A stretch of DNA of 64,000 bases. Source: Candidatus Uhrbacteria bacterium (lineage in GTDB: Bacteria > Patescibacteriota > Patescibacteriia > GWA2-47-26). A model generated the notes under the pieces. That model had not been told where the DNA came from. It saw only the letters and a list, made by a program, of their open reading frames with translations, and searched no databases. The stretch spans positions 64,856 to 128,855 of the forward strand of contig JACPJN010000006.1 in the NCBI GenBank assembly GCA_016187515.1. Reading direction: 5' to 3'. Positions 3,642 through 27,842 of this stretch are shown one piece after another. Both the position numbers and the translations under genes were made by a program. Numbering within the stretch: the stretch's first letter is position 1; each line of letters starts with the position of its first letter.

Positions 3642-3709
3642 AGTGTATTGAGTAAATCAAGCGAGGCAAGCCCTGTAGTGAAGCTTCGCTCTACTACGGG
3701 GCAAGTAAA

Positions 3710-5155
3710 TCAAGTACCTGCTTTACTTGATTCACCTGATTTACTTGATTTACCCAATTGCCCAATCGCTACCGCGATCGCGAGCGGCACCCAAAGTTTG
3801 GAAGTGTAGTAGGTAGTATTAAACAACTGATAACTAATCGCCCCTAACGCGATTAAAAGCGCCACCCCAGTCGCCATTCGCGTTTCCGCATTCAGCATCG
3901 CGCTTTTTGACCAGAGTGGTTTTGCGATATAGTAAAGAATACTGCCGATCAGAATTATAAATCCGGCGAGCCCCAGCAGTCCTTGCTCAAACATCAATTT
4001 GAAAATAATTCCGTGCGCGTCTAAGGGTTCGCCATATTCCAAAAGAAAGGCCTTGGTTTGCCAAAGCGTCGGGATAAAGGTGCCGATCCCCTGCCCCAAA
4101 ATCGGCGAGCGCGAGAAATAAAAAGTCGCGATACGCGCTTGATCCAGGCGCGAAAGAGTTGAACCGCGAACCGCTTCGGTAAAAGTGGTCGCCGCTAAAG
4201 TCAAGGTCATGGCCGCAAATAGAATCAGCGCCGGAGTGGCTTCTTTAAGAAACGCGCGCACCCGTCCCCGATGCATTACCGCCAGATAACACATCGCCTG
4301 GATCAGTACGGCAATCCAGGCCGAACGGGAAAAGGTCAAAAGCGCTACCGCCCATTGCAAGAATGTAAAATGTAAAATGTAAAATGTAAAATTTTTGCTT
4401 TGCAATTCGCCAGTTTTAATTTTCAATTTTGCATTTTGCATTAACAATAGTCCTACGGGCGCGGTAGCGACCAACGTTTCCGCCAGCAAATTGTGATTCG
4501 CGCCCAAGGGGTTCAAACCAAACGCGCCGAACGGACGGGCGCGCGGAAAATCTCCGTGCGCTCCTAAAACAAGCCCGAGCAGACCGTCCAAGGCGGCGAT
4601 CAGTCCGGTTGCAAAAAACACCAGGAGCACGCGATCAATTTTATCCTTATGCCGGGCAATAATGCTTACCGGCACGATAAAAAACACCAGGTAAAAAAAG
4701 GTAAAAGGGCGGGCGAAATATTTAAACGAGGCGTTAAATTGAATCGCCGGAACTTTCAAAAGTGAAAGCAACCCGGATAACCAAAACAACAAATAGGATC
4801 TCCAATGCGGCAACGGCCGCGCTAATCTCCAATTTCTAATTTCTAATTTCCAATTACCAGCGATATTGATTCCCCACGCTGCAAAAAGCAGCAATCCGTA
4901 CAGATCAACAAACGGGGCGTTGATGCTTTTAAGATAGGGAACATCTTTAAAAATTTCAAAGGCGCTAAAATCAATCACTAGCCCGAGATAGGGAAAGAAA
5001 AATACCAGGACCAGCAGTCCAAACAGCAGATTACGCGCCAAAAACCAAACGGCCGCCGCCAAAAATACAATACTTAAAGAAAGCAACGGATGCACCAAGG
5101 CCGCCACCGCCGCGGCAAAGATAATCCCTAACGCCAGCCGGATAAAACGCTTCAT
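3710..5155 (-). CDS. O-antigen ligase/Wzy_C-like polytopic membrane protein. It has two in-frame heptamer tracts.
   Basis: About 12 TM segments and the motif TFSRSAWIAVLIQ. Heptamers aatgtaa x4 (4363..4392, encoding FTFYILHFTF) and aatttct x3 (4829..4853). Confidence 0.6.
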   Translation of the reverse strand: MKRFIRLALGIIFAAAVAALVHPLLSLSIVFLAAAVWFLARNLLFGLLVLVFFFPYLGLVIDFSAFEIFKDVPYLKSINAPFVDLYGLLLFAAWGINIAGNWKLEIRNWRLARPLPHWRSYLLFWLSGLLSLLKVPAIQFNASFKYFARPFTFFYLVFFIVPVSIIARHKDKIDRVLLVFFATGLIAALDGLLGLVLGAHGDFPRARPFGAFGLNPLGANHNLLAETLVATAPVGLLLMQNAKLKIKTGELQSKNFTFYILHFTFLQWAVALLTFSRSAWIAVLIQAMCYLAVMHRGRVRAFLKEATPALILFAAMTLTLAATTFTEAVRGSTLSRLDQARIATFYFSRSPILGQGIGTFIPTLWQTKAFLLEYGEPLDAHGIIFKLMFEQGLLGLAGFIILIGSILYYIAKPLWSKSAMLNAETRMATGVALLIALGAISYQLFNTTYYTSKLWVPLAIAVAIGQLGKSSKSGESSKAGT

Positions 5156-5382
5156 AGTTTCTAACTATACCACATTTTCATAAAATTAAAAGAGTCCCCA
5201 ACAGGCACATTGCGCGAAGCGTAAAACAAAACACCCTCGAGTGGTTTGGCTATCAAGGTAAAAGAGTAAGGAGGAGATACTCTAAACCGATTGCCAAACC
5301 GCCCGAAGGCGCTGTTAAGGCGCGGGGTAAACCACCCAAAGGTGCCGCATCGTGTTACGTGCTGCGCGTATCGTGACGGTAT

Positions 5383-5411
5383 ACTCTACCACGTTTCTCA
5401 TCCCCTGTCAA
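5383..5411 (-). promoter_or_regulatory. Putative sigma70-type promoter upstream of the ligase gene: TTGACA-N17-TAGAGT.
   Basis: Minus-strand read ccTTGACAggggatgagaaacgtggTAGAGT, about 230 nt upstream of the ATG at 5155. Confidence 0.3.
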
Positions 5412-5429
5412 GGGCCCCCGTTATCAGAG

Positions 5430-5476
5430 AAGGAAAAATATGGCGCCTGGGAAAGAAGGTTCTCTTCTCTCCCAGG
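5430..5476 (-). terminator. Putative intrinsic terminator downstream of the MopE-like gene.
   Basis: Hairpin cctgggaaagaa-ggttctc-ttctctcccagg, followed on the minus strand by a U-rich tract. Confidence 0.35.
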
Positions 5477-5578
5477 GCGGTGTTCGCGCCTACACGCGAA
5501 ACGTTGAAAGAGCCAATCACGGGCCACGATTGTAGGTTCGTGGAATTTCCCGCGCTTTGTGTTTGTTGTGCTGGCCTG

Positions 5579-7696
5579 CTACGGCGTGGCCGGACCAACC
5601 ACGTCGTTTCGGGGCACGCAGTTGCCGCCCCCGGCGATTTCCTCCGCGGTCACGCGCTCGATCGGGTCGGTCAAACCCGTCCCGTCCGAGCACTCGGTGA
5701 CGAACCGCAGATCGGTGAACAGACCGTCGATCCGTCCCGCTCCCGCGAAGTAGTTGCAGGCCCATCCTTCGCCGGACTCGGCCGAGAACTCTACGTCCTC
5801 GTCCGCATCCGCGTCCACCTCCACCTGGAAGCACGAATCGGCCGTGGGCACCGGCAAACAGAAGTCCACCGCGCTCACCTGCGCCGCCGCGCTTCCCGCG
5901 ACCACCGGCGCCTCGGGCCCGCAGGTTCGAGCCGTGAGGATGCCGTCCACGTCGCCGAAGGTGCCGTCGCCGTTGCGATCCGCGGTCTCGTACGTACCGC
6001 AGAGGGTGACCGCACAGGTCCCCACCGGCTCTCCCTCCGACTCCGACTCGCTCTCGGACTCGGACTCACTTTCCGATTCGCTCTCGCTCTCGGACTCGGA
6101 TTCGGACTCGCCTTCGCCCGGATCCACGGGACACGTGGAACCGAGACACGTGAGCATGCCATCCTCGCAGATGGTCAGCCCGACCGTGCACTCCGGCGCA
6201 CTCTGACACAAGGCCAACTCGTCCGACGTGGGGGCCTCGTCGGCCTCCTCGTCGCAGTCGTTGTCCAACCCGTCGCACAGCTCGGGGCTGGAGCCCACGG
6301 CGTCGCCGCACGGTCCCCATGCTCCGCCGGAGCAGAGCTGGGTACCGGAAACGCACTCGCCGATGTCGCTGCCGCACGGCAGGGTTTCCCCATCCGTGCA
6401 GTCGCAGCCGTTGTCCACGGCTCCGTCGCAGTCCTCGTCGGTCTCGCCGTCGCACGTTTCCGTGCTCGGGACGATCCCGTTGAGGCAGGCGGACCAGAGT
6501 CCGCCGTCGGTACAGAACTGCGTACCGAACTCGCAGGATCCGACGTCCGAGCCGCACGGGCGGGAAACGCCCGGCAGACATGCGAACCCCTCGTCCACGG
6601 AACCGTCGCAGTCGTTGTCGCGACCGTCCGGCACTTCCGGGCTCGGATCGCCCGGGGCGCAGGAGTTGATCACGAGACCGTCCACGCACGAGGTTTCCCC
6701 CGTGGAGGCGCAGTCGCCGCCTCCGCACCCGGTGGACTGGGACTCGAAATCCTCATCCACCAAGCCGTCGCAGTCGGTGTCGCCACCGCCGCAGACGTCC
6801 GAACCGAGGAGGGGTTCGACGTTGCCGACGCACTGCAGGTTGCCGCCCACGCAGATCGTGCTCCCGAAAGAGCAATTCCCCGCGTTGGTGGTCCCGCACG
6901 CTCCACCCGTCTCCACCGTCACGCCGTCCACCACGCCGTCGCAGTTGTTGTCCAGCCCGTCGCAGAACTCAGGGCTGGGCAGGGTCGCGCCAAGGCACGG
7001 TCCCCAGGTCCCGCTCGCGCAGGTCTGGGTGCCGAACTCGCACGTGCCCATCTCCGAGGCCGGGCCACACGTCCGGGTCGCCCCGTTCGTGCAGTCGCAG
7101 TCCTCGTCGGTTGCGCCGTCGCAATCCTCGTCGGTCAGCCCGTCGCAGGTCTCGGGCGCCGGACCCACACTGCCGAAGCAGGTGGCGCTCCAGAACCCGT
7201 CCGCGTCGCAGAGCTCAACGCCCGCGACGCAGGACCCGACGTCGGATCCGCACGAACGCATGACGCCCGAAAGGCAATCCACGCACTCGCCGGCGACACA
7301 CACCTGGTCCTCGAGGCAGAGATCGCAGGGGTCTTCCCCCTCGGACTCGCTCTCGGACTCGGACTCGCTCTCGCTTTCGGCTTCCGCTTCCGCTTCCGCC
7401 TCGGCTTCGGCTTCCGCCTCGGCTTCGGCTTCGGCTTCGCTCTCCGCCTCCGCTTCGGATTCGGCTTCGGACTCGCCTTCGTCCGGCATGCCGGCATCGG
7501 GCTGGGCGTCCGGACCCATGTCCGGCTCACCCTCGGCTTCCGCCTCTGCTTCGGCTTCGGCTTCGGCCTCGGCCTCGGACTCGCCTTCCATGGGTACGAT
7601 GCCCGCGTCCGGCTCTTCCGCATCCGGCGCCTGCGCCGGAGAATCCAGCAGGTTGCAAGCGGCGGCGACCGCCGCCATCCAAATGCTGTACCTCAT
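5579..7696 (-). CDS. Secreted/lipoprotein with acidic EA/ES low-complexity tracts and about 8 MopE-like Cys-rich repeats (CDGxDxDCDGxxDE).
   Basis: Start is the ATG at 7696 with RBS AAGGAGGAA (MRYSIWMAAVAAACN...), preferred over the TTG at 7771. It is homologous to the small proteins at 27897 and 30392. The overlapping plus ORFs 5291..7750 and 6228..7763 are GC-rich antisense artefacts. Confidence 0.6.
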   Translation of the reverse strand: MRYSIWMAAVAAACNLLDSPAQAPDAEEPDAGIVPMEGESEAEAEAEAEAEAEAEGEPDMGPDAQPDAGMPDEGESEAESEAEAESEAEAEAEAEAEAEAEAEAEAESESESESESESEGEDPCDLCLEDQVCVAGECVDCLSGVMRSCGSDVGSCVAGVELCDADGFWSATCFGSVGPAPETCDGLTDEDCDGATDEDCDCTNGATRTCGPASEMGTCEFGTQTCASGTWGPCLGATLPSPEFCDGLDNNCDGVVDGVTVETGGACGTTNAGNCSFGSTICVGGNLQCVGNVEPLLGSDVCGGGDTDCDGLVDEDFESQSTGCGGGDCASTGETSCVDGLVINSCAPGDPSPEVPDGRDNDCDGSVDEGFACLPGVSRPCGSDVGSCEFGTQFCTDGGLWSACLNGIVPSTETCDGETDEDCDGAVDNGCDCTDGETLPCGSDIGECVSGTQLCSGGAWGPCGDAVGSSPELCDGLDNDCDEEADEAPTSDELALCQSAPECTVGLTICEDGMLTCLGSTCPVDPGEGESESESESESESESESESESESESEGEPVGTCAVTLCGTYETADRNGDGTFGDVDGILTARTCGPEAPVVAGSAAAQVSAVDFCLPVPTADSCFQVEVDADADEDVEFSAESGEGWACNYFAGAGRIDGLFTDLRFVTECSDGTGLTDPIERVTAEEIAGGGNCVPRNDVVGPATP

Positions 7697-7743
7697 GAGT
7701 TCCTCCTTGCGCCTACGGCGCATTGTTGTTGCGCCGCAGACGC

Positions 7744-7772
7744 TTTTTAAACGTCTGGGCTGATCTGTCAAT
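7744..7772 (-). promoter_or_regulatory. Putative promoter TTGACA-N17-TAAAAA for the MopE-like gene.
   Basis: Minus-strand ttcaTTGACAgatcagcccagacgtttAAAAAG, followed by leader ...gcaaGGAGGaactcATG. Confidence 0.35.
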
Positions 7773-7864
7773 GAACATCTTCGCCATCGGCGAAGTTTGC
7801 CTTAAATTGCCACCTGCTCGATTTCGCTGGTCTACAATCTAAGGTAAATCTCGCCATACTGGGG

Positions 7865-7993
7865 CCGTTGAACAATTGATTATTCGTGCACATTCGTCAG
7901 GCCGCCTCGTAATCGCCTCGCAGGAACACTGCGGTTTTGGCGGCCGTCTATTCGTGGATATTCGTGTAAACTGCGCAGGAGTTAATTCTTCAA
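7865..7993 (+). promoter_or_regulatory. Copy 1 of a conserved ~130-bp element containing four ATTCGTG direct repeats, a GGCCGCC...GGCGGCC stem and imperfect terminal inverted repeats.
   Basis: About 85% identical to 27683..27812. Both copies lie upstream of MopE-like lipoprotein genes, but in opposite orientation relative to the gene. Confidence 0.5.
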
Positions 7994-8011
7994 CACTCTC
8001 ATAATAGATCC

Positions 8012-8048
8012 GGGGGACGGAACGCACACGTATGTGCGTTCCGTCCCC
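8012..8048 (-). terminator. Perfect 19-bp inverted repeat (gggggacggaacgcacacg-ta-cgtgtgcgttccgtccccc). Putative terminator of the 9886->8067 operon.
   Basis: Lies 19 nt past the stop at 8067. The downstream U-run is weak. Confidence 0.4.
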
Positions 8049-8066
8049 GCGGTTGATTGCCTACTC

Positions 8067-9233
8067 CTATCGCGCCGGAGCCAGCGGCATGGGCACCGCC
8101 CACTCGCCGCGCACCTCCCCCCGCCTGCGAACCGGAGCCGGCTCCCCGAACGGGAACCGTCCCTTCAGAAACGCCCCGACCCCGAAGTCCATGGACTGCG
8201 GGTGGCTGACCTGGCCAGCCAGGTCCACTTCCTCGCGCCGCAGCCCGCCGACCAAGGCCTGGAGTTCCAGCCGGACTACGTCCGACCCGATCTCCAGTAC
8301 CGGCCCGGCCTGGACCAGATTGCTCTGTCCACGCTCGGACTCGTCATGGCCCCGACCGCACCAGCCCGCCAGACCGCCGATCGACACCGCGCTTTCGCGG
8401 GCGATCGGGGTCAGGGCTCCGGCCTGAATGCAGACAAACTTGTCCGCGTCCGCGTCCAGATCCAGGCCCCCGGCCGCCACTCGCAGGGTGGGGCTCCAGG
8501 TCGTGGACTTGAGATCCAAGTCCGCACCCAGCTGAACCCCGGCGCCGGACCCGAAGTCGTGAAACCCGACTCCGCCGGCACCCACGGTGAACGCGGACCG
8601 CTGGTCCTGGTCCCGCGGAGCACAGATCACGCCGGCCGGGCACTCCTCGCCAGAGCCGATCAAGAGTCGGCCGTGCGAGTCGTACGCGGCTGCTTCTGCC
8701 GCGGCCCGGTCCGCCTCCGCGAGTGCGGTGTCCACGACTTCCAGGGCCGCGCGGTCCTGGTCGGTCCGCTCCCGCGCCGCACGCAAGGCCCGGGCCCGCT
8801 CGGCGAGCTGGTCCTTGCGGGCCTGCAGCGCCTCCTGGTCCACCGGCAGACGATCCGCCGGCGCAGGACGCTCCGAAGCGGCCTTGAACACGATGCAGGG
8901 CGTATCCCCGCACCGGGCCGCGGCACACTCCTGGTAGATCCTGTCTTCCACCGTGCCGGGAGCGAACGCGAAGTTCTCGCCCGGACGACGGTTGAGCTCC
9001 ACGAGACGGGCACAGGTGGGGCCATCCACTGACCCGCGCACCTGCCTCCCGTTTTCCAACTGCCAGGCGCAAACCTGGCAAGCCGAACGAGTGGCCTCCG
9101 CCTGCTTGACCGCCTCGTCGCCGAAGCAGCGCAGACAGAACTTGCTCACGTCCCTCACGTCCCGCCCCTGCGCCACTGCCGTGAACGGCAGAGCGAGAAG
9201 GGCGAGAACGGAAAACACGCTCTTGATTCTCAT
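8067..9233 (-). CDS. Secreted protein with a central coiled-coil and a Gly-rich C-terminal domain; function unknown.
   Basis: Clear signal peptide MRIKSVFSVLALLALPFTAVAQG. RBS GAAGGAG sits upstream of the ATG at 9233. Overlapping GC-rich ORFs 8034..9032(+) and 8344..9405(-) lack such signals. Confidence 0.55.
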   Translation of the reverse strand: MRIKSVFSVLALLALPFTAVAQGRDVRDVSKFCLRCFGDEAVKQAEATRSACQVCAWQLENGRQVRGSVDGPTCARLVELNRRPGENFAFAPGTVEDRIYQECAAARCGDTPCIVFKAASERPAPADRLPVDQEALQARKDQLAERARALRAARERTDQDRAALEVVDTALAEADRAAAEAAAYDSHGRLLIGSGEECPAGVICAPRDQDQRSAFTVGAGGVGFHDFGSGAGVQLGADLDLKSTTWSPTLRVAAGGLDLDADADKFVCIQAGALTPIARESAVSIGGLAGWCGRGHDESERGQSNLVQAGPVLEIGSDVVRLELQALVGGLRREEVDLAGQVSHPQSMDFGVGAFLKGRFPFGEPAPVRRRGEVRGEWAVPMPLAPAR

Positions 9234-9265
9234 GGTTTTTCTCCTTCTCGGCTTTCGGTTTCGGT

Positions 9266-9886
9266 CTACTCGGCCTGAATGACCGTTGCCTCACCTCCGC
9301 CAGGCGGCGGAGGCGCAAGGTCGGTCTCGGCCGGAGCCGCTGCCCGCGCTGGGGCCGGCTTGGCTGCGCTGGCCGCCGGGGCCGCCGCCGCATTTGCCGT
9401 ATCACACGGCGGACACGGCTTGGCTACCTTCTTGGCCGCCGGCTTGGCCACCACGGGCCGGGGCTCGCGCAACTGTGCCAGGCGCGTCTCGAGCGCGTCG
9501 GGGGTGGTGAGCGGGAGGTACTCGTTCCTCCAGTGCCCCTGCTCGGACTTGTCGGTCTTCCACAGGCCCTTCAGGCAGTACTGGGGCACGGTGTGGCGCC
9601 CCTTCATGCCCTCGTGGGTGGACTCGACCTCGGCCAGGCGGAAGGCGCCGCCCGTGCAATCGAACGCTGCCAGGTTCTCCGGCGGCGCGGGCTCGGCCTT
9701 CTTGGCCGGGGCCGGCGTGGGCTCGGACGGCTTGGCCGCCGCCACCGGCTTGTTCTCCGGCGCCGCGGCCGGGGCCGGCTTGGCCTCGCTGTTGCTGCAG
9801 GCGCAGAATGCAAATCCAGCGCCCACGATCGCGGCCGTACCCGCAATGAGCACGGTCCACAGAATCGCTGCGATTCGTCGGTTCAT
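9266..9886 (-). CDS. Pro/Ala-rich lipoprotein; function unknown.
   Basis: Signal peptide with Cys (MNRRIAAILWTVLIAGTAAIVGAGFAFCAC). RBS AAGGAGAAG upstream of the ATG at 9886. Confidence 0.55.
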   Translation of the reverse strand: MNRRIAAILWTVLIAGTAAIVGAGFAFCACSNSEAKPAPAAAPENKPVAAAKPSEPTPAPAKKAEPAPPENLAAFDCTGGAFRLAEVESTHEGMKGRHTVPQYCLKGLWKTDKSEQGHWRNEYLPLTTPDALETRLAQLREPRPVVAKPAAKKVAKPCPPCDTANAAAAPAASAAKPAPARAAAPAETDLAPPPPGGGEATVIQAE

Positions 9887-10092
9887 CTGACTTCTCCTTG
9901 TTGTGCGCCTTGCGGCGCGGTTGTGCGCGCCAGGCGCCGTGTAAATGACTCAAAGATTCAATGAACAAAGGACTGGTCTAAGCCAGCTCTTGTCTGTCCT
10001 CCAAAAGTATTGGAATCCAGGCAAGATTCCGGCTGATTGGTTAGATTTTGCCCCAAAATGGCCTATTTGGGGCATTCTGGTCTTAACGCGTT

Positions 10093-10121
10093 AATATAAC
10101 ATAAATAGCGGGATTTGTCAA
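10093..10121 (-). promoter_or_regulatory. Promoter TTGACA-N17-TATATT for the 9886->8067 operon.
   Basis: Minus-strand cTTGACAaatcccgctatttatgtTATATT; the -35 box lies inside the terminator hairpin of the upstream kinase gene. Confidence 0.45.
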
Positions 10122-10150
10122 GTCCTTGATGGCTTGAACAAATCCCGCTT
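10108..10150 (-). terminator. Intrinsic terminator after the kinase gene.
   Basis: Stem agcgggatttgt...acaaatcccgct, followed by atttatgttat on the minus strand. Confidence 0.5.
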
Positions 10151-10158
10151 TCGTATCA

Positions 10159-11493
10159 CTACTCGGCTTCAAACACCGCGGCCTTGCCGCCTCCGGCCGG
10201 CGGCGGTGCGGGCACACGCTGTCCCGCACTCTGCCTGGACGCGGCCTGGCGCGCCCGCTGCCGCTTCACCGGCTTGAAAGCGGGCTTTTCCGTCTTGACC
10301 GGCTCCGGAGTTGCTGCCGGCGGCGGAGAAGACGGCGCAGCGGCCGCCACAGGAACAGTGGTCACCGGCGGGCTCGGCGGCAGGATCGGCTGAACCAGAG
10401 GGACCGACGGGCTGGACTGCAGCAGTACGATGAAAAGCAGTACTGCGAAAACGAAGACCAGCGCAAAACCCGCAAGTAGGGCCAATCCCTTCCGCCCCTT
10501 CCACCCGTAAGGATCGGTCGCGGTTACGGCACGCGCAACTGCGCCTCCCTGCGTAAACGCGCTAAGCGCGGCCCGGAACTCCTCGACCGAGGCGTACCGC
10601 TCCTCTGGTTGCCGCGCGATCGCCTTGAGAGCAACCGAGCTGACATCCTCGGAAACCGCCGCGCGCACTTCGTGAGGCGGCCGGGGCTGCTGCGTGGCCT
10701 GGCGGTGGAAGATCGTGAGCAGATCCTCGCGCCCAAACGGCGGCTCGCCCGTGAGCATCTCGTAGAGCACGGCGCCAAGCGAGTACACGTCCGCGCGGCA
10801 GTCCACGATCTTGCCCGCGGCCTGCTCCGGCGCCATGTAGGCCGGAGTGCCGATGATCAGCCCGGCCTGCGTGCGCGCGGCGCCCTGGCGGTTGACTTTC
10901 GCGATCCCGAAGTCAATCACCTTGACCAGGTCGCCTTCCGGCGAGTCGGTCAAGAAGATGTTGTCCGGCTTCAGGTCCCGATGGATGATGCCCCTGGCGT
11001 GCACGGCCTCAAGCGCGTGCGCCGCTTGCATGATGATTGCCAGCGCGCGATCCGAATCGATCGCGCCGGAAGCCAGCAGCCGCTGGAGCGACTGGCCTTC
11101 GAGCAGTTCCATCACGTAGAACGGATGGCGAACCCCGCCAATCTCGATTGCGCCCGCATCGGTGACCGAGACGACGTTGCCGTGGCGAATCGCGACGAGC
11201 AGTCGCGCCTCTTCCACAAAGCGCTCGGCAAACTGCGCTGCCGGAGTTGAACCGCTGGCCGGGTAGTAGATCTTGAGCGCGTGATGGCTCCCCAAGGTCA
11301 GATGTTCAACCTTGTAGACCTGGCCCATTCCGCCGTGATCCAGGGCGGTAAGCACCCGATAGCGGCCCTCCACGATCTGACCTACGAAAAGCAAGGGGGT
11401 GATGCCGGAGCCGGTAAAGGCGCCGGCGTCGGAGGCCGGCAGCGTCGGATCGCTGCCCAGGCCGTTTCCAACCGGTCCTTTTCCATTGCTCAT
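10159..11493 (-). CDS. Hanks-type Ser/Thr protein kinase with a C-terminal TM segment and a Pro-rich tail.
   Basis: Motifs GQIVEGRYRV...GGMGQVYK...ALKI...HRDLKPDNIFL...DFGIAK...GTPAYMAPE. The ATG at 11493 has RBS GGAAGGAG; the track start at 11601 is less likely. Confidence 0.8.
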   Translation of the reverse strand: MSNGKGPVGNGLGSDPTLPASDAGAFTGSGITPLLFVGQIVEGRYRVLTALDHGGMGQVYKVEHLTLGSHHALKIYYPASGSTPAAQFAERFVEEARLLVAIRHGNVVSVTDAGAIEIGGVRHPFYVMELLEGQSLQRLLASGAIDSDRALAIIMQAAHALEAVHARGIIHRDLKPDNIFLTDSPEGDLVKVIDFGIAKVNRQGAARTQAGLIIGTPAYMAPEQAAGKIVDCRADVYSLGAVLYEMLTGEPPFGREDLLTIFHRQATQQPRPPHEVRAAVSEDVSSVALKAIARQPEERYASVEEFRAALSAFTQGGAVARAVTATDPYGWKGRKGLALLAGFALVFVFAVLLFIVLLQSSPSVPLVQPILPPSPPVTTVPVAAAAPSSPPPAATPEPVKTEKPAFKPVKRQRARQAASRQSAGQRVPAPPPAGGGKAAVFEAE

Positions 11494-11627
11494 GGCAATG
11501 CTCCTTCCTGAAGATGTGGCTCGAGACATCGCTCGAGCAAGTTTTCGAGGAACAATCGCTGGGATTTTCAAGCCCGTCCAAACACCCTGTTTCACAACCA
11601 ACGCGGGCCTAAAATCACCAACAATTC

Positions 11628-11656
11628 AGTATACACAAAAAAGACCTGGTTGTCAA
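11628..11656 (-). promoter_or_regulatory. Promoter TTGACA-N17-TATACT for the kinase gene, embedded in a bidirectional hairpin.
   Basis: Minus-strand cCTTGACAaccaggtcttttttgtgTATACTg; hairpin gacctggttgtc-aagg-acaaccaggtc at 11643..11669. Confidence 0.45.
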
Positions 11657-12015
11657 GGACAACCAGGTCCCGTCGTTCTTTTTTCCCCATCCACACCAGA
11701 CGCGGCATGGCGGTGTGCCCGAGCAGCATTGGGGGAACGCCCCGACACGACAGCGCAGGCAGGCAGGACGGTTGGGGATCCTGCCAAGGAGACCCGCAGA
11801 CCCCACCATTCACCCAAGCGAGAGACGCCTGACGGCGATGTGGCAAGGCAATTTTGGGAGCGTCTGCAGTCCTCTGCGCAATTTATTTCCTCATAATCCT
11901 AAATTGCGCAGGGACGGAAGAGGACCCTTGTATTGCCGCCCACCCTGACGGGACACGCCGCGCCCTCTCCTTACCGCGAGTTCCGCAGCAAGGAAAGCGG
12001 GGCGGCGCACGGACG

Positions 12016-13161
12016 CTACCTCCCCCCGCGCATCCGCATCGCCTCGCAGTGCTTGAGCCGGCGCAGGACCTCGGCAAGCGCCGGACGGCGAACCGGGTCA
12101 AAGCTCGTCATCTCCCGCCACAGATCCTGCATCCAGACGCGCACCGCCGGGTGAAGATCCGGATGCGTACAGTCCGGAAGCGGCCGACGCGCCACCTCGA
12201 GAAGTTCTCCGGCATTCACGGAGTCCGGAAGCGCCTGCGACCCCTGCGACATCTCGCAGAGCATCCGACCCAAGGCAAAGGTGTCCGTGGCCTCACTCAC
12301 CGCGCTGCCGATCAGCTGCTCCGGCGCGCAATAGCGCGGCGTGGCTCCGGCCGCGCCGAATACCGCGGTCAAATCCGGAAGGTCCTCGGCATCGCGGACG
12401 AGCTCCTTGGCCACTCCCAGATCCAGGATCACGACCTCGAAAAACGCCTCGCCGGAGGCGGTCAGCGGGACCACCACCATGTTCTCCGGCTTCAGATCCC
12501 GATGCACCACCTGGGCGCGCAAGTGAAGACGCGTGACCGCGCGCGCGATCTTGGAAGCCGCAAAGTAGATGAAGCGCCAGGGCAGCCGCCAACCAGCCGG
12601 GGTAAATCCCAGCTCGGAAACCAGGCCCGGATTTCCCACGATGTCATAGAGCGAAAGGCCGGCGATAAAGCTCAACACCAGATGCGGAAGCGGTTCATCA
12701 GCGCGACCCAGATACACCGGGAAGCTCGGATCCCCGACCATTCCGGCCAGCAGCCGCCCTTCTTGCCGCAGCCGTTCGCGGCAATGCGCGGCAAGCTCCG
12801 CGCTGGCGCCCGGCGGCGGATTCAAGAGCTTGACCACTTGGAGCAATGGACGGATTCCGGGCTGGCGGCGCAGCTCGGCGACCTCGGAAGCGGTGAGAAT
12901 CTGGTAAACACCCGGATCCCTGGGAAGCGCCATCAGGTAGCTTTCGTCCAGGGTTCCGTCGGAAGCCGCCGTCGCGAGCGGCACGCAGACGTTAACTGCC
13001 GCGGTACCGCCCTGTCCCAGAGGCGCCCAGATGAGCAAGGGCTCACCCCAGGGGCGGACAATGGCCGTGCCCGGCTTCAGTGCGTCCGGATGAAGTCCGG
13101 AAACGCGCTGCAGATGCGGCGCCGGCCACATCCGGAACGCAACAGCATTGCTAGCAGACAT
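12016..13161 (-). CDS. Protein-kinase-like protein, probably a pseudokinase.
   Basis: Has HRDLKPENMVV and a Gly loop LGQGGTAAV, but no beta3 Lys (VNVCVPL) and DLG in place of DFG. Strong RBS CCAAGGAGG before the ATG at 13161. The plus ORF 11854..13260 is an artefact. Confidence 0.6.
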   Translation of the reverse strand: MSASNAVAFRMWPAPHLQRVSGLHPDALKPGTAIVRPWGEPLLIWAPLGQGGTAAVNVCVPLATAASDGTLDESYLMALPRDPGVYQILTASEVAELRRQPGIRPLLQVVKLLNPPPGASAELAAHCRERLRQEGRLLAGMVGDPSFPVYLGRADEPLPHLVLSFIAGLSLYDIVGNPGLVSELGFTPAGWRLPWRFIYFAASKIARAVTRLHLRAQVVHRDLKPENMVVVPLTASGEAFFEVVILDLGVAKELVRDAEDLPDLTAVFGAAGATPRYCAPEQLIGSAVSEATDTFALGRMLCEMSQGSQALPDSVNAGELLEVARRPLPDCTHPDLHPAVRVWMQDLWREMTSFDPVRRPALAEVLRRLKHCEAMRMRGGR

Positions 13162-13211
13162 GGTAACGCCTCCTTGGCGGTTTGGTCTTGGAAAGAACGC
13201 ACTCTAAGCCC

Positions 13212-13241
13212 ATTACAACACAAAAACGGCCGCTTGTCAAG
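13212..13241 (-). promoter_or_regulatory. Promoter TTGACA-N17-TGTAAT for the pseudokinase, overlapping the terminator hairpin 13223..13249 of the Wzz-like gene.
   Basis: Minus-strand aaaacggccTTGACAagcggccgtttttgtgtTGTAATggg. Confidence 0.45.
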
Positions 13242-13270
13242 GCCGTTTTGTGATTTGTGATTTGGAATTT

Positions 13271-13894
13271 CTACAATAGGTGTCCGTGATGCTTTTTTCT
13301 CCGATGATCCAGCCAAACCCAGCCGCTTGCTAAAAATGCTCCGAGAATTCCGCCCACTACCGCGTTTAGGGGAAGGTTGGGGCGGACCGGGAATTTGGAA
13401 GCCAGCGGCGGATCAACCAGGCGAACCGTCAGCTCGCGGCCGACATAATCCGATCCCTGCGCTGAAAGCAGAAAGGCGCTGGCGGCGACAATCCGTTTCG
13501 CTTGATCGCGGTCCGGATGAAACGCGGTAATCCTAACGAGTCCGGTCCCGCGCGCCACGTCCACTTCAACAGTATCATCCCAAAGCCGGCGCTTAAGATG
13601 TTCGGCTTTATCAAAATAGCGCGGATCGATCTTATAGCCGCTCTCGAGAATCCGCGAGAGAAAAGTGCTGGTCGCGACCACCTGGGCCAAACTGTCGCCG
13701 ATCAGCTCATTGGAGCGCAGCGCGGTATAGGGATCAAGAGTAAACGCTTCCTTTTGGGTAATCAAGAGCCGCACGGAGGCGCTATACTTAAACGGCAGCA
13801 CCAAAGAAATCGCGGCCGCGACCGATGCGGTTACGAGCGCGAAAAATACAATAAACTTGCGGCTGGTTTTCAGTATCGGTAAAAGCTTTTCCAT
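13271..13894 (-). CDS. Wzz/CapA/CpsC-like polysaccharide chain-length determinant, short form.
   Basis: N-terminal TM, then KYSASVRLLI (compare the Wzz Y-x-S-x-LL motif), and a C-terminal TM VGGILGAFLASGWVWL. Size is 207 aa. Confidence 0.55.
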   Translation of the reverse strand: MEKLLPILKTSRKFIVFFALVTASVAAAISLVLPFKYSASVRLLITQKEAFTLDPYTALRSNELIGDSLAQVVATSTFLSRILESGYKIDPRYFDKAEHLKRRLWDDTVEVDVARGTGLVRITAFHPDRDQAKRIVAASAFLLSAQGSDYVGRELTVRLVDPPLASKFPVRPNLPLNAVVGGILGAFLASGWVWLDHRRKKHHGHLL

Positions 13895-13915
13895 GCCTAA
13901 ACATTATATCACCTT

Positions 13916-14968
13916 TTAAGGCAGCGCGCCAAGCGAGACGCGCACGGTCTCTTCCTGGCCCTGCCGGATAATCCCAAGCTCCACTTCCGCGCCCGGGGGA
14001 TACCGCTGCAGCAGCAGTTGAAAAGGTATCGCGCTGTCGAGCCGCCGTCGGTCAAACGCAGTCAGCACATCGCCTTCTTTAAGCCCGGCCGTAAAGGCCG
14101 GCGACTTGGGTAAAACTGCCGGACGCCCTTTGGCCCCTTTGAGCAGGAGTCCGAAAGTCGGCGCGCCGGGAAGCGGCGCGGTACGATTTAAATCCATAAA
14201 ATTAATTCCCAGCCAAGTGGGGCGATATTCCCGATTATCCAAATATTGCCGCAGCGCCTTTTGCATAAACTCCGCGGAAATGGCCTCGCCATGCTCGCGG
14301 CTGATCCCCGTCAGCTGTCCTCGGTAATCAAAAAGGAAATGTCCCGGACCCGGATCGCCGTCAATCCAGAAAGACGGCGGCCGATCTTCGGAGGATTCCA
14401 CCGCGGCCCCGGTTGCCGTAGTATAGGTCGCGATCACCCGATGGATACGAACTGCTCCGCCCTCGCCGAATGCAAAAAGCGACTCGCCAACTTTAACCTG
14501 TTCATAGGCCGATAGGATAAACGGACTTACCGACGAGGATTGCTCGCCGGCAATATTGTAAAAAGCAATTCGCAGCTCGGGCAGGTAAAACCGCTTGCCT
14601 TTCGCGTTTAAGGCCTCCTTGAGCGTAAGGATACGGCGATCGTTGGAAACCGCTTTCAGCTTTATCCGCTCGCGGATCGTGTCGGGAATTCCGACCAGCC
14701 CGTCAGAGGTCAGGGCCAAGGCATATCCGCTCACCTCCGGAACCACTGCCGCCGGCAGGCGCGATTGATGCAGGGTCAGCAGGGTCTTTCTGGCCTGCTC
14801 GATATCAAAGGTCACCTCCTCCAGTACACGGACCGGAGGGGAACTTGGCTGGCGCGCGGGAGACGCTCCGGGGAAAAGCGCTTTGGGAATCACGATATTT
14901 AACAAAAATATCCCAAAAATTCCTCCCAAAAATCCAAAAATAAATGGCTTGACTATACTACGAAACAT
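13916..14968 (-). CDS. Membrane-anchored trypsin-like (HtrA/S1C-like) domain protein with a C-terminal PDZ domain. It is possibly catalytically inactive.
   Basis: An N-terminal TM after the ATG at 14968. The position of the GNSGGP serine motif reads GDPGPG (Ser->Pro). A PDZ-like domain follows (LGINF...GLKEGDVLTAFD). Confidence 0.45.
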   Translation of the reverse strand: MFRSIVKPFIFGFLGGIFGIFLLNIVIPKALFPGASPARQPSSPPVRVLEEVTFDIEQARKTLLTLHQSRLPAAVVPEVSGYALALTSDGLVGIPDTIRERIKLKAVSNDRRILTLKEALNAKGKRFYLPELRIAFYNIAGEQSSSVSPFILSAYEQVKVGESLFAFGEGGAVRIHRVIATYTTATGAAVESSEDRPPSFWIDGDPGPGHFLFDYRGQLTGISREHGEAISAEFMQKALRQYLDNREYRPTWLGINFMDLNRTAPLPGAPTFGLLLKGAKGRPAVLPKSPAFTAGLKEGDVLTAFDRRRLDSAIPFQLLLQRYPPGAEVELGIIRQGQEETVRVSLGALP

Positions 14969-14973
14969 AACCC

Positions 14974-15762
14974 CTACAACCACTCCGCGGTTAAAAGCAG
15001 CACGGCAAGCAGCGCCCCGCCAAATCCCAGATGCCGATACAGTATCTTCTTGGTCATCAGATTGAGCAGCTGCGTGCGGCTCAACATTACCCCCACATAC
15101 CAGCATACCGTCAGTATCGCTCCGCTGGCCATGAAATAAAGCGGTAGAATATTGAACACTAAGAAAAGTTCAAATCCCAAGAGCGCGACTACCCAGACCG
15201 TGACCGACGCGGAGGATCCGCGCAGTCCGCTAAACCAAAAAATCGAATGGGTAAGCAAGGAGATGAGCAGGATAAAGAGCGCCGCGACGAAGGCGATATT
15301 CAGGCCTAACAGCAGACGCATTCCCAGAAGCGCGCTGACTCCCAAAAATATGGCCAGCGTCGCGGTATATCCTCCCAGATTTTCAAGCGAATACCCCTTG
15401 AATACCGAAGGATTTTTTTCATACATCACCATGCTTTCAAAAAATAGCGCCGTGAGCGCCGCGACAAGCAGGCCCAGCGCCTGTCTCGCCAAGGCCCGCT
15501 CGACCAACAATTCAAAAGCCAAGGCGGACCAGATCAAAAAAAGCGGAACGGCCGCTAAAGCCAGCCGATAGGCGAGCCGCTCCTTTTTGGAAAGATCGGG
15601 GGCGGCCTTAAAAAAAACTTTGACTATCCCGGCGACGAGAAGGAGAGCGCCGACGGCTGCCATAACTACTGCCGTTGGCCGCAGCTGGATGGTCTCAAAA
15701 AGCGCCAAGACGGCAAATGCGGTCCCCAGCGAAAAAAAACGGCGAATATTGACCATGACCAT
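14974..15762 (-). CDS. Polytopic membrane protein, about 8 TM segments; function unknown.
   Basis: Highly hydrophobic 262-aa ORF; its stop lies 5 nt upstream of the next gene's start. Confidence 0.5.
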   Translation of the reverse strand: MVMVNIRRFFSLGTAFAVLALFETIQLRPTAVVMAAVGALLLVAGIVKVFFKAAPDLSKKERLAYRLALAAVPLFLIWSALAFELLVERALARQALGLLVAALTALFFESMVMYEKNPSVFKGYSLENLGGYTATLAIFLGVSALLGMRLLLGLNIAFVAALFILLISLLTHSIFWFSGLRGSSASVTVWVVALLGFELFLVFNILPLYFMASGAILTVCWYVGVMLSRTQLLNLMTKKILYRHLGFGGALLAVLLLTAEWL

Positions 15763-15777
15763 AGTGGTGGCACCGGG

Positions 15778-16827: not shown

Positions 16828-16922
16828 ACTGCCTACAGTATACCACACGGTGGGGGTGAGATTCTCCGCCGGAGGCGGATGCGCCTCCCGCCCAAGGCGG
16901 ACAGGCGGGCGCAGAACCTATA

Positions 16923-17005
16923 CGGAGGGTGCAGGACTCGAACCTGCAAGGGCTTTCGCCCGCTAGTTTTCAAGACTAGTGCCTTGCCATTCGGCGCAAC
17001 CCTCC
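16923..17005 (-). tRNA. tRNA-Ser (anticodon UGA); no encoded CCA.
   Basis: Manual fold: acceptor GGAGGGT/ACCCTCC; anticodon stem CTAGT/ACTAG with loop CTTGAAA; long variable arm; T-arm CAGGTTCGAGTCCTG. Confidence 0.7.
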
Positions 17006-17006
17006 T

Positions 17007-17096
17007 TGGCGGAAGGGGTGGGATTTGAACCCACGAGCCCCCTTTCGGGGGCAAAGTTTAGCAAACTTTTGCCTTGGACCACTCGGCCACCCTTCC
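17007..17096 (-). tRNA. tRNA-Ser (anticodon GCU), with encoded CCA.
   Basis: Acceptor GGAAGGG/CCCTTCC; anticodon stem AAAGT/ACTTT with loop TTGCTAA; long variable arm GCCCCCGAAAGGGGGC; T-arm GTGGGTTCAAATCCCAC. Confidence 0.7.
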
Positions 17097-17130
17097 GTGC
17101 CACCTATACTATCACAGTATCCACCCTTTT

Positions 17131-17835: not shown

Positions 17836-17837
17836 AC

Positions 17838-18416: not shown

Positions 18417-18439
18417 ATGATTTACCTGATTTACCTGAT

Positions 18440-20284: not shown

Positions 20285-20292
20285 AATTCCGG

Positions 20293-20979: not shown

Positions 20980-20989
20980 AATTCCTGAT

Positions 20990-21421: not shown

Positions 21422-21424
21422 AGA

Positions 21425-21535
21425 TACCGCGGAACTTATACAGAACTAGAACGGATCTTACACTGACGTTTCCGCATATGTTCCGCTATGGTTCCGTATA
21501 TGTTCAGTGTCAGAAACGGAGTTTCTGATTCAACT
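21425..21535 (+). promoter_or_regulatory. Copy (rearranged, inverted) of the 90-bp CGGAAC/GTTCCG upstream element family.
   Basis: Shares gaacatatacggaa, cagtgtaag.tccgt and the start-proximal ATAAGTTCCG with 47771..47870 and 52401..52500. Confidence 0.4.
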
Positions 21536-27661: not shown

Positions 27662-27682
27662 AGTATTGCTAATAGTATGAGA

Positions 27683-27812: not shown

Positions 27813-27842
27813 TGGTTTCAGTATACCACGCTCTTCAAATCC

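What the first reader, a model, noticed from the sequence alone, without database searches (positions are those of the whole stretch)
5291..13260. ~8 kb island of ~70% GC inside the polysaccharide locus: MopE-like lipoprotein, secreted proteins, kinase plus pseudokinase
GC content jumps from about 50% to about 70% between the ligase-like gene and the Wzz-like gene. The block encodes proteins atypical for a minimal genome and reminiscent of Myxococcota-type proteins: MopE-like CDGxDxDCDG repeats, a Hanks kinase with a Pro-rich tail, and a kinase-like protein lacking the beta3 Lys with DLG in place of DFG. Yet it uses the same TTGACA-N17 promoters, shares a regulatory element with the 27.8 kb locus, and contains terminator/promoter composite hairpins like the rest of the window. 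It is either an acquired island or, alternatively, an assembly chimera.
Basis: partly seen in the sequence, partly recalled or inferred. Interest (0 to 1): 0.55.

Follow-up and report, generated by a model that had tools for sequence, protein, structure and literature searches.

The report
Foreign high-GC envelope/kinase gene block
An 8-kb stretch of unusually GC-rich DNA in the chromosome of a tiny groundwater bacterium (Candidatus Uhrbacteria) is real rather than an assembly error, and is most likely an old horizontally acquired block of five genes: three cell-surface proteins and two protein kinases.

Summary
The GC jump is real: 0.654 inside 5291-13260 against 0.524 outside. Third-codon-position GC is 0.76-0.85 against about 0.5-0.65, and Lys AAA codon use is 0.07 against 0.64.

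Five minus-strand genes fill the block:
- a MopE-motif lipoprotein;
- an exported orphan protein with a possible 8-stranded beta-barrel;
- a Pro/Ala-rich membrane protein;
- a receptor-type Hanks kinase;
- a second kinase.

An assembly chimera is effectively excluded. Per-run assemblies from several sequencing runs match the window at 100% across both borders. The deposited MAG carries the genes under consecutive accessions on one 355,817-bp contig. A 111-nt element inside the block recurs at 27.7 kb.

Acquisition is the best reading, but it is neither recent nor traceable. Apart from one sister lineage (63-67% amino-acid identity, same architecture, same high GC3), the best kinase matches are at most 46% identical and cover the kinase domain only. 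There is no integrase, bordering tRNA or flanking repeat.

The "pseudokinase" call is wrong. K111 sits in the conserved beta3-Lys column, and E134, HRD, N227, D247 and APE are all present. MopE motifs also occur in two normal-GC genes of the same window.

This is an ordinary kind of thing (a genomic island) in an unusual host, so interest is moderate.

The parts
5156..5578 (-). Left border spacer (GC 0.51). Holds the hairpin after the MopE gene and the promoter-like site TTGACA-N17-TAGAGT (5411-5383) upstream of the Wzy_C/O-antigen-ligase-like gene 3710-5155.
5579..7696 (-). MopE-motif lipoprotein, about 705 aa from the ATG at 7696 that follows AAGGAGG (the open frame runs up to 7771). Features: lipobox Cys conserved in the sister copy (…AAAC|NLLDSPA), acidic EA/SE repeat tracts, about 7 Cys-rich modules with CDGxDxDCDG, and GC3 0.83.
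7860..7970 (-). Repeat D10, 83% identical to 27678-27788 (upstream of the VirB6-like gene 24878-27661). It has four CACGAATA-like boxes arranged as two tandem pairs 10 nt apart, around a GGCCGCC/GGCGGCC inverted repeat. Probable transcription-factor site; there is no RNA-structure signal.
8013..8048 (-). Perfect hairpin (terminator-like) after the 388-aa gene; conserved in the sister locus L012.
8067..9233 (-). Exported orphan protein of 388 aa: Sec signal peptide, Cys-containing helical N-domain, long helix 133-181, then 8 predicted beta-strands (214-361) whose low-confidence model matches OmpA/OmpX/NspA-type barrels. GC3 0.83.
9266..9886 (-). 206-aa protein with an N-terminal membrane anchor and Pro/Ala-rich linkers. 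No family match. GC3 0.85.
10093..10150 (-). Hairpin (-27 kcal/mol) whose 3' arm carries the -35 of TTGACA-N17-TATATT (10121-10093), upstream of the 206-aa gene. The promoter is conserved in sister locus L011.
10159..11493 (-). Receptor-type Hanks Ser/Thr kinase of 444 aa (NCBI MBI2551962): kinase domain, one transmembrane helix, and a Pro-rich external tail. GC3 0.78.
11628..11671 (-). Composite terminator/promoter: a 14-bp hairpin with TTGACA in its loop and 3' arm, then a T-run and TATACT.
11874..11911 (.). Perfect 12-nt inverted repeat CTGCGCAATTTA-N14-TAAATTGCGCAG, 5 nt from the recurrent contig break at 11846/11869.
12016..13161 (-). Second Hanks-type kinase, 381 aa, cytoplasmic. All catalytic residues are present (K111, E134, H220-R221-D222, N227, D247-L-G, P280-E281, R359). 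It has a 45-residue insert between beta2 and beta3. GC3 0.76.
13162..13270 (-). Right border spacer (GC 0.47): hairpin ACGGCC…GGCCGT enclosing TTGACA (13240-13235), a T-run, TGTAAT and the RBS AAGGAGG. It lies directly downstream of the CpsC/Wzz-like gene 13271-13894.

Best explanation
This is a genuine, chromosomally integrated block of five genes in a Candidatus Uhrbacteria (CPR/Patescibacteria) genome. It entered by horizontal transfer from an unidentified GC-rich donor, and the transfer is old rather than recent.

The block sits between a CpsC/Wzz-like gene and a Wzy_C ligase-like gene of a surface-polysaccharide locus. It runs in the same direction as its neighbours and is split into at least four transcription units. 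Each unit is preceded by a terminator-like hairpin that overlaps or abuts a consensus TTGACA-N17 promoter.

It most likely works as a cell-envelope sensing and surface module:
- three exported or anchored proteins (a Cys-rich MopE-motif lipoprotein with acidic spacers, a signal-peptide protein with a beta-rich C-domain, and a Pro/Ala-rich anchored protein) make up the surface part;
- a single-pass receptor kinase and a soluble second kinase, both apparently catalytically competent, phosphorylate cytoplasmic targets, plausibly the neighbouring polysaccharide machinery.

Shown: the composition, the gene content, the integrity of the assembly, the presence of the catalytic residues, purifying selection, and the shared host element. 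Inferred: the transfer itself, its age, and every functional link.
For: Composition:
- GC 0.654 against 0.524. GC3 0.76-0.85 against roughly 0.5-0.65 in most host genes.
- Synonymous codon choice differs sharply: Lys AAA 0.07 against 0.64, Gln CAA 0.06 against 0.48, Asp GAT 0.29 against 0.64. Three of the five genes lie 2.6-2.9 SD from the host mean.
- Amino-acid usage is shifted to Ala/Gly/Pro and away from Ile/Lys/Asn/Phe/Tyr.
- GC-normalised tetranucleotide correlation with the host is 0.65, against 0.90 +/- 0.07 for host 8-kb pieces.

Assembly integrity:
- L006 equals window 3685-7423. L001-L005 (5 runs) equal 11846-22445. L007 equals 7973-11869 and is seen in 12 samples. All are 100% identical to the window.
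- NCBI proteins MBI2551957-64 and -70 lie on one 355,817-bp contig.
- The rest of the window is core housekeeping: GroEL, RF1, NusA, YidC, HisRS, Der, Pth.

Age and selection:
- Sister copies (L011, L012) have dS 0.6-1.0, dN/dS 0.31-0.49 and GC3 0.80-0.86. One promoter, one terminator and the sec388-to-MopE gene adjacency are conserved.

Rarity:
- The 388-aa family has only 4 members among 1.84 billion representatives.
- The second kinase's next relative is 29% identical and lies on a uniformly GC-rich contig.
- No relative of any island gene was found in 80 related CPR loci, apart from MopE-motif hits.

Regulatory integration: element D10 is shared with the 27.7-kb locus.
Against: - There is no integrase, no tRNA at the borders (the nearest is 3.7 kb away) and no flanking direct repeat of 11 nt or more.
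- No relative with conserved flanks was found, so 'absent from close relatives' could not be tested.
- Spacers inside the block have host-like GC (0.47-0.58 against 0.475). Their promoters resemble those of other CPR genomes, for example L020 and L023.
- MopE motifs occur in normal-GC genes of the same genome and in other CPR loci.
- The island's tetranucleotide signature is closest to a 57.6%-GC Uhrbacteria locus (r 0.83) and a 65%-GC Patescibacteria locus (r 0.77). The donor may therefore be another CPR bacterium, or the signal may partly reflect residual GC dependence.
- No donor was identified. Kinase-domain matches of at most 46% identity to Myxococcota, Acidobacteriota and Chloroflexota are uninformative.
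Confidence: 0.68

Rival explanations
1. Assembly or binning chimera: a fragment of a GC-rich organism joined to a CPR contig.
For: There is a sharp compositional step. Per-run contigs always break inside the block at 7423, 7973 and 11846/11869.
Against: - Both outer borders are crossed by kilobase-long contigs that match the window at 100%, assembled independently from single runs.
- The left-border, middle and right-border contigs all occur in the same run, SRR12113401.
- The MAG deposited at NCBI, a separate assembly, shows the same order.
- The block holds element D10, which is also present at 27.7 kb.
- The promoter of the host ligase gene lies inside the block's left spacer.
- The internal breaks fall at repeats (EA/SE-coding tracts, the D10 edge), not at the GC borders.
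Confidence: 0.03
2. Native genes, not transferred. Under this reading an old lineage-specific gene set is kept GC-rich by selection or by a local mutational or repair bias.
For: - Host-like spacer GC and CPR-style promoters.
- MopE motifs elsewhere in the genome at normal GC.
- GC3 stays at 0.8 in both sister lineages after dS 0.6-1.0.
- No mobility genes.
- A second extreme-GC3 gene in a 39%-GC Magasanikbacteria locus (L038) suggests a recurring phenomenon in this CPR class.
Against: - No known mechanism holds GC3 at 0.8 in five adjacent genes while the neighbours sit at about 0.57.
- Amino-acid usage is also of the GC-rich type.
- None of 80 related CPR loci holds relatives of the kinases or of the 388-aa or 206-aa proteins.
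- The closest non-sister relative of the second kinase lies on a uniformly GC-rich contig.
Confidence: 0.15
3. Recent transfer from Myxococcota.
For: Named top kinase hits include Myxococcales, Polyangia and Sandaracinaceae. MopE-type Cys-rich repeats and abundant Hanks kinases are typical of that phylum (general knowledge).
Against: - The best non-sister identities are 37-46% over 60-66% of the kinase (the kinase domain only), and Acidobacteriota, Chloroflexota and Planctomycetota rank equally high.
- The second kinase reaches at most 29-37% identity.
- The 388-aa protein has no Myxococcota relative at E <= 1e-3 among 1.84 billion representatives.
- The sister copy shows long residence in a context with about 50%-GC spacers.
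Confidence: 0.05
4. A cassette that moves among CPR bacteria, with a GC-rich CPR relative as donor, and that carries its own hairpin-promoter units.
For: - The composite hairpin/-35 units are specific to the island spacers (4 of 4, against 0 of 8 host promoters). At least one island promoter and one terminator hairpin are conserved in the sister copy.
- The tetranucleotide signature is closest to higher-GC CPR loci L023 and L020.
- GC-rich CPR with the same T4SS block exist (L020, GC 0.65).
- The same promoter style is seen in L020 and L023.
- Recurrent graph breaks bracket the 3.9-kb middle segment.
Against: - No recombinase or transposase is present.
- No homologues were found in the roughly 1.2 Mb of CPR loci examined.
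- Tetranucleotide similarity after mononucleotide normalisation still tracks GC.
- The flanks of the sister copies are unknown.
Confidence: 0.09

Closest known systems
Horizontally acquired genomic island recognised by atypical composition
   Same: It is a contiguous multi-gene block with deviant GC, codon usage and oligonucleotide signature, inserted in a core chromosomal region. Its cargo is surface proteins and signalling genes.
   Different: It has no integrase, no tRNA attachment site and no flanking repeats. It is not recent, because a sister copy has diverged to dS 0.6-1.0. Its spacers have host-like GC and it carries a host repeat. No donor was identified. The host is a reduced CPR genome.
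Bacterial Hanks-type (eukaryote-like) receptor Ser/Thr kinases such as M. tuberculosis PknB
   Same: The 444-aa protein has a PF00069 domain (E 4.9e-41), a transmembrane helix and an external tail. The model of the 381-aa protein superposes on PknB (TM 0.81, rmsd 3.3 A), and all catalytic residues are present.
   Different: There are no PASTA or other known sensor domains; the external part is only a Pro-rich tail. The 381-aa protein has a 45-residue insert between beta2 and beta3 and DLG instead of DFG. No PP2C phosphatase or FHA partner is present in the window.
Proteins carrying the Pfam 'Cu-binding_MopE' putative metal-binding motif (PF11617)
   Same: It has repeated CDGxDxDCDG motifs above the Pfam cut-off, and it is exported and lipid-anchored.
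   Different: Only the short motif is shared. Nothing links it to copper handling as in Methylococcus MopE. It has long acidic EA/SE tracts and an unrelated C-terminal domain.
Small 8-stranded outer-membrane beta-barrels (OmpA N-domain, OmpX, NspA, Ail, PagP)
   Same: The predicted C-domain of the 388-aa protein has 8 antiparallel Gly/Ala-rich strands. Foldseek hits are almost exclusively such barrels (E 6e-4 to 1e-2, target TM 0.45-0.62). The relative P0242 ends in …GVGGVLPF.
   Different: The model confidence is low (pLDDT about 50-65). There is no sequence-family match. The window protein has a 26-residue extension after the …GRFPF motif. CPR bacteria are not known to have an outer membrane (general knowledge).
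CpsC/CpsD-type (PCP2b) chain-length regulator pairs of Gram-positive capsule loci
   Same: The gene just upstream of the block is a short CpsC/Wzz-like adaptor (TIGR01006 over its full length, weak). A kinase gene follows it directly, inside a Wzy/glycosyltransferase locus.
   Different: The following gene is a Hanks-type kinase, not a P-loop BY-kinase. No BY-kinase is present in the window. The adaptor match is far below the family cut-off (32 against 296 bits).

Membership tests
Horizontally acquired genomic island | Base composition and codon usage deviate from the host genome | tested here: met
   GC 0.654 against 0.524. GC3 0.76-0.85. Codon-usage distance z up to 2.9. Tetranucleotide r 0.65 against 0.90 +/- 0.07.
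Horizontally acquired genomic island | Mobility genes, tRNA insertion site, flanking direct repeats | tested here: not met
   No integrase or transposase domain in the five genes. The nearest tRNAs are at 16.9-17.1 kb. The longest border repeat is 9-10 nt.
Horizontally acquired genomic island | Absent from closely related genomes with conserved flanks | tested here: inconclusive
   In 80 related CPR loci, synteny ends just after the T4SS-ComF block and none holds the flanking genes. Two JGI metagenome scans were empty.
Horizontally acquired genomic island | Closest homologues lie outside the host lineage | tested here: inconclusive
   Named hits are non-CPR but only 29-46% identical. The only close relatives (63-67%) come from unlabelled short contigs.
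Assembly chimera | The junctions are not reproduced by independent assemblies | tested here: not met
   Both junctions are reproduced at 100% identity in per-run Logan contigs and in the NCBI MAG. Read-level coverage is not testable here.
Hanks-type Ser/Thr protein kinase (PF00069): 444-aa protein | Kinase domain above the curated cut-off, with catalytic Lys, HRD and DFG | tested here: met
   141 bits against a cut-off of 31.7. ALK, HRDLKPDN, DFG and APE are seen in alignment A4.
Pseudokinase: 381-aa protein | Loss of at least one of beta3 Lys, catalytic Asp (HRD) or Mg-binding Asp (DFG) | tested here: not met
   K111 lies in a column that is at least 90% conserved. H220-R221-D222 and D247 are invariant. 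Beta3 108-113 and alphaC 121-139 appear in a model with pTM 0.80, which fits the whole PknB domain. Activity itself was not tested.
MopE motif proteins (PF11617) | Repeated CDGxDxDCDG motif above the gathering score | tested here: met
   E 2.3e-17, 3 stretches. About 7 modules are visible in the self-comparison and repeats.
MopE copper-binding protein of methanotrophs | Copper site and secreted copper-acquisition role | not testable with these tools
   Only the short motif is shared. No full-length similarity was sought or found.
8-stranded outer-membrane beta-barrel (OmpA/OmpX-like): 388-aa protein | Barrel fold, OMP sequence family, C-terminal aromatic beta-signal | tested here: inconclusive
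   The fold hits are OMP barrels, but the model pLDDT is about 50. No Pfam hit even at E 10. The terminal Phe motif is followed by 26 more residues here, although it is terminal in relative P0242.
CpsC/CpsD (PCP2b) adaptor + BY-kinase pair | Short Wzz-like adaptor followed by a P-loop tyrosine kinase | tested here: not met
   An adaptor-like gene is present (PF02706 27.8 bits; TIGR01006 32 bits, below the cut-off). The next gene is a Hanks kinase, and no BY-kinase domain occurs in any window protein scanned.

The most novel reading that the evidence does not exclude
The block may be a host-interaction cassette that this presumably episymbiotic bacterium took from a GC-rich, double-membraned partner, or that it trades with other CPR bacteria.

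Under this reading:
- the 388-aa protein is a true OmpA/OmpX-like barrel. A cell without an outer membrane could use it only by inserting it into the partner's outer membrane;
- the Cys-rich lipoprotein acts as an adhesin;
- the Hanks kinase that directly follows the CpsC-like adaptor replaces the missing BY-kinase in controlling surface-polysaccharide length.

The recurrent assembly breaks around the 3.9-kb middle segment, and the second extreme-GC3 gene in L038, would then be signs of a wider, still mobile class of GC-rich cassettes in this CPR class.
Probability: 0.08. Interest if true: 0.7.

Novelty: new member of a known kind. Interest (0 to 1): 0.35.

Why it matters
CPR bacteria have small genomes and unknown partners. 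A well-supported foreign block that brings two active-looking Ser/Thr kinases and three surface proteins into a surface-polysaccharide locus shows how such cells can gain envelope and signalling functions. Its composition may also hint at who they exchange DNA with.

There is a practical point too. A 13-point GC step in a MAG need not be a binning or assembly error, and per-run public assemblies can settle that question without reads. Finally, the correction of the pseudokinase call shows that an insert in the N-lobe can hide the catalytic lysine from reading by eye and from Pfam.

Tried and rejected
- Syntenic relatives with or without the block. The genome-contig scan with the VirB4-like ATPase gave 80 CPR loci, but synteny ends after ComF. 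Two JGI metagenome scans, one with the 388-aa alignment and one with the PDZ protein, found nothing.
- Anti-phage defence system. The strong PADLOC PD-T4-6/mad6 hits are generic kinase-domain matches, and the other genes give no hit. All NCBIfam hits are far below their cut-offs.
- D10 as a structured RNA. There is no covariation, the folding z-score is -0.5, and there is no Rfam hit.
- tRNA fragment in the sister spacer as an att remnant. Neither ARAGORN nor Rfam supports it.
- The 84-91-aa ORF at 11592-11867. It overlaps the terminator/promoter hairpin and is not annotated in the NCBI record, whose accessions are consecutive there. I treat it as spurious.
- Cluster mates P0247 and P0248 of the 388-aa protein. 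They are unrelated 51-56-aa proteins, a clustering artefact, and the look-up was wasted.
- Literature searches found no description of this block. The runs SRR121134xx appear to belong to the Northern California agricultural groundwater series (PMC7906910); this is an inference.

Full report
**Observation**

A 1-kb profile shows GC of 0.48-0.54 in the first 5 kb. It rises to 0.59-0.71 from 5 to 13 kb and falls back to 0.47-0.61 for the rest of the window. At 300-nt resolution the rise begins near 5.3 kb and the fall near 13.1 kb. There are three internal troughs of about 0.50-0.57, at 7.7-8.0, 9.8-10.2 and 11.4-11.9 kb.

The block has GC 0.654 and the remainder 0.524. Five long minus-strand ORFs fill it. 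Their GC at codon positions 1/2/3 is about 0.7/0.5/0.76-0.85. Most other genes of the window have GC3 of 0.5-0.65.

**What the genes are**

- **5579-7771(-).** It carries the Pfam MopE motif PF11617 (E 2.3e-17), long EA/SE acidic tracts and about seven Cys-rich modules. The real start is probably the ATG at 7696, which is preceded by AAGGAGG. The N-terminus …AAAC-NLLDSPA matches the sister copy's …SVAGC-NLLDSPA, a lipobox.
- **8067-9233(-).** It has a Sec signal peptide and no family match.
- **9266-9886(-).** It has an N-terminal anchor and Pro/Ala-rich linkers.
- **10159-11493(-).** It is a Hanks kinase (PF00069, E 4.9e-41) with one transmembrane helix and a Pro-rich tail.
- **12016-13161(-).** Pfam matches it only over the C-lobe.

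The flanking genes are a Wzy_C ligase-like gene (3710-5155), two GT4 glycosyltransferases, a short CpsC/Wzz-like protein (13271-13894) and a PDZ protein. The rest of the window is core CPR chromosome. It holds a T4SS-like block (PrgI, TraC-like, VirB4-like, VirB6-like) and ComF-like, GroEL, RF1, KsgA, YidC, NusA, HisRS, signal peptidase, Der and Pth genes.

**Host**

The kinase and seven other proteins are exact matches to NCBI proteins of "Candidatus Uhrbacteria bacterium". The accessions MBI2551957-64 and -70 run consecutively on one contig of 355,817 bp.

**Chimera test**

Exact-protein look-ups returned contigs assembled separately from single sequencing runs.

- L006 (SRR12113401) equals window 3685-7423 and crosses the left border.
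- L001-L005 (five runs) equal 11846-22445 and its sub-ranges, and cross the right border.
- L007-L010 equal 7973-11869 and its sub-ranges, and L007 recurs in 12 samples.

All are 100% identical to the window. Run SRR12113401 alone yields left-border, middle and right-border contigs.

Two further points tie the block to this genome. It contains a 111-nt element that is 83% identical to one at 27.7 kb. The promoter-like site of the host ligase gene lies in the block's left spacer.

I regard the chimera as excluded, apart from read-level checks that I cannot run.

The internal contig ends at 7423, 7973 and 11846/11869 are constant across runs. The first lies in the EA/SE-coding repeats and the second at the D10 edge. 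The third lies 5 nt from a perfect 12-nt inverted repeat at 11874-11911. Their cause is unexplained. Further repeat copies outside the window, or a population variant of the 3.9-kb middle segment, are both possible.

**Foreignness**

- Synonymous codon choice is that of a GC-rich organism.
- Codon-usage distance to the host is 2.6-2.9 SD for the three surface-protein genes, 1.7 for the kinase and 0.8 for the second kinase.
- Amino-acid usage is shifted in the same direction.
- After normalising for base composition, the tetranucleotide pattern of the block correlates at 0.65 with the host. Host 8-kb pieces correlate at 0.90 +/- 0.07, with a minimum of 0.72.

**Relatives**

The kinase has one close relative, P0002 (63% identity), on a 1.6-kb contig. 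Everything else is at most 46% identical and covers only the kinase domain. Named sources span Myxococcota, Acidobacteriota, Chloroflexota and Planctomycetota.

The 388-aa protein has one close relative, P0121 (67% identity). An exhaustive profile search of 1.84 billion representatives found only three more, each partial.

The second kinase's next relative is 29% identical. It lies on a uniformly 60-73% GC contig beside a serine recombinase.

None of the 80 related CPR loci holds relatives of the kinases or of the 388-aa or 206-aa proteins.

**The sister copies**

L011 and L012 show the same pattern of GC-rich genes (0.65-0.75) and spacers of about 0.46-0.52. They share the sec388-to-MopE order, a conserved terminator hairpin and a conserved promoter.

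Between the window and the sister copies, dS is 0.6-1.0 and dN/dS is 0.31-0.49. GC3 is 0.79-0.86 on both sides. The genes are therefore under purifying selection, and the block predates the split of two lineages.

If the block has sat in genomes of about 52% GC since then, simple amelioration arithmetic requires an original GC3 of about 0.9 or more. That is possible for very GC-rich donors. This step is inference.

**Regulatory anatomy**

Spacers inside the block have GC 0.47-0.58, like host spacers at 0.475. Exact TTGACA-N17-TAnnnT sites precede the ligase gene, the 206-aa gene and the kinase gene. A TTGACA-N17-TGTAAT site precedes the second kinase.

At all four sites the -35 hexamer lies within or next to a stable hairpin (-17 to -27 kcal/mol). 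None of the eight intergenic host TTGACA promoters that I folded has this arrangement. The composite units are therefore a property of the block, not of the window in general.

Promoters of the same style (TTGACAAA, then a C-rich and a T-rich stretch, then an extended -10) occur in other CPR loci such as L020 and L023.

D10 carries four CACGAATA-like boxes as two tandem pairs 10 nt apart. There are 4 matches against 0.46 expected. It shows no RNA-structure signal. I read it as a transcription-factor site shared with the VirB6-like locus.

**The "pseudokinase"**

In a 40-sequence alignment, K111 falls in a column that is at least 90% conserved, and so does E134. H220-R221-D222, K224, N227, D247, P280-E281, D293 and R359 are invariant.

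The AlphaFold model (pTM 0.80) places beta3 at 108-113 and helix C at 121-139. A low-confidence insert at 62-105 lies between beta2 and beta3. The model fits whole kinase domains, for example PknB at TM 0.81 and 3.3 A.

DLG keeps the metal-binding Asp. By sequence this is an unusual but complete kinase.

**The 388-aa protein**

The model is poor (pLDDT 50). It gives a helical N-part, a long helix and eight strands. Its PDB neighbours are almost all 8-stranded outer-membrane barrels. The strands are Gly/Ala-rich and conserved in relatives, and one relative ends in …LPF. This is a lead only. No sequence family supports it.

**Donor**

No donor was identified. The block's tetranucleotide pattern is closest to a 57.6%-GC Uhrbacteria locus (r 0.83) and a 65%-GC Patescibacteria locus (r 0.77). 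It is less close to its own host (0.65) or to the non-CPR GC-rich contigs L093 (0.56) and L094 (0.69).

MopE motifs occur in normal-GC genes of this window (27798-28580 and 30392-31279) and near the T4SS block of other CPR genomes.

**Mechanism**

Most likely this is an envelope module. The lipoprotein, the exported protein and the anchored protein would act at the surface. The receptor kinase and the soluble kinase would pass signals inward. The position between the CpsC-like and Wzy-like genes suggests a link to surface-polysaccharide assembly. No phosphatase, FHA protein or BY-kinase is encoded in the window. All of this is inference from domain content and position.

**Verdict**

This is a real feature, an ordinary kind of thing (a compositionally foreign gene block) in an unusual host. 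It carries several orphan proteins, one corrected annotation and some unexplained details. Interest is moderate.

Noticed in passing
window 7860-7970 and 27678-27788: A 111-nt repeat (83% identity) with four CACGAATA-like boxes as two tandem pairs 10 nt apart, flanking a GGCCGCC/GGCGGCC inverted repeat. It lies upstream of the MopE lipoprotein gene and of the VirB6-like gene. It looks like a response-regulator-type binding region, with no RNA-structure signal.
   Followed up: partly
window 7973 and 11846-11869; inverted repeat 11874-11911: Independent per-run assemblies always break at these two points, which bracket the kinase/206-aa/388-aa segment (an identical 3,897-bp contig in 12 samples). 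A perfect 12-nt inverted repeat lies 5 nt from one break. This may be a repeat family outside the window or a structural variant in the population.
   Followed up: partly
L038 17769-20198 (+) (Candidatus Magasanikbacteria CG11_big_fil_rev_8_21_14_0_20_39_34): A single 809-aa ORF with GC3 0.89 in a 39%-GC genome. It has PE/PK repeats and no Pfam family, and is followed by a terminator and TTGACA-N17-TATTAT. Like the window's block, it lies a few kb downstream of the T4SS-ComF cluster. It is unrelated in sequence to the window's island genes.
   Followed up: partly
window 27798-28580 (+), 30392-31279 (+); repeats 28909-31630: Two normal-GC genes carry the MopE motif (PF11617, E about 1e-7). The region holds a duplicated unit of about 1.24 kb (repeats D3, D5, D12) with near-identical promoters and leaders for the genes at 29152 and 30392.
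   Followed up: partly
window 3693-3758, 18392-18448, 43407-43481, 51103-51168: A family of 9-nt periodic repeats (TTTACTTGA/TTTACCTGA) at gene ends and boundaries, including the 3' end of the ligase-like gene, where it encodes a …KSSKSGESSKAGT tail. It is absent from the GC-rich block.
   Followed up: no
window 2148, 41823, 59796, 62471, 63671; also 1502, 48509, 59292: Two families of G/C-rich hairpin repeats (CTCCTCCCCTTAAGGTAAGGGGAGG… and CCCTCTCCC…GGGAGAGG). Some lie inside long ORFs (the glycosyltransferase 955-2400, the second Wzy_C gene 47917-49470, and Der 58329-59795). None lies in the island.
   Followed up: no
window 31418-40372 (-): A giant ORF of 2,984 aa whose only Pfam hit is a weak carbohydrate-binding-module match. 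Its region has the lowest tetranucleotide correlation among host segments (0.72).
   Followed up: no
L020 (Patescibacteria FW602_bin.41, 855,898-bp contig): A CPR genome with GC 0.65 that carries the same T4SS block (VirB4 76% identical) and a MopE-motif hit upstream of it. This shows that GC-rich relatives exist which could serve as donors.
   Followed up: partly
window 13271-13894 / 12016-13161: A short CpsC/Wzz-like adaptor gene is followed directly by a Hanks-type kinase gene, at the position where Gram-positive capsule loci have a BY-kinase. No BY-kinase was found in the window.
   Followed up: partly
protein cluster of window 8067-9233: In the 90%-identity protein collection, the 388-aa protein is filed under an unrelated 56-aa representative (P0247). 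For this reason its self-hit was missing from the homology search.
   Followed up: yes
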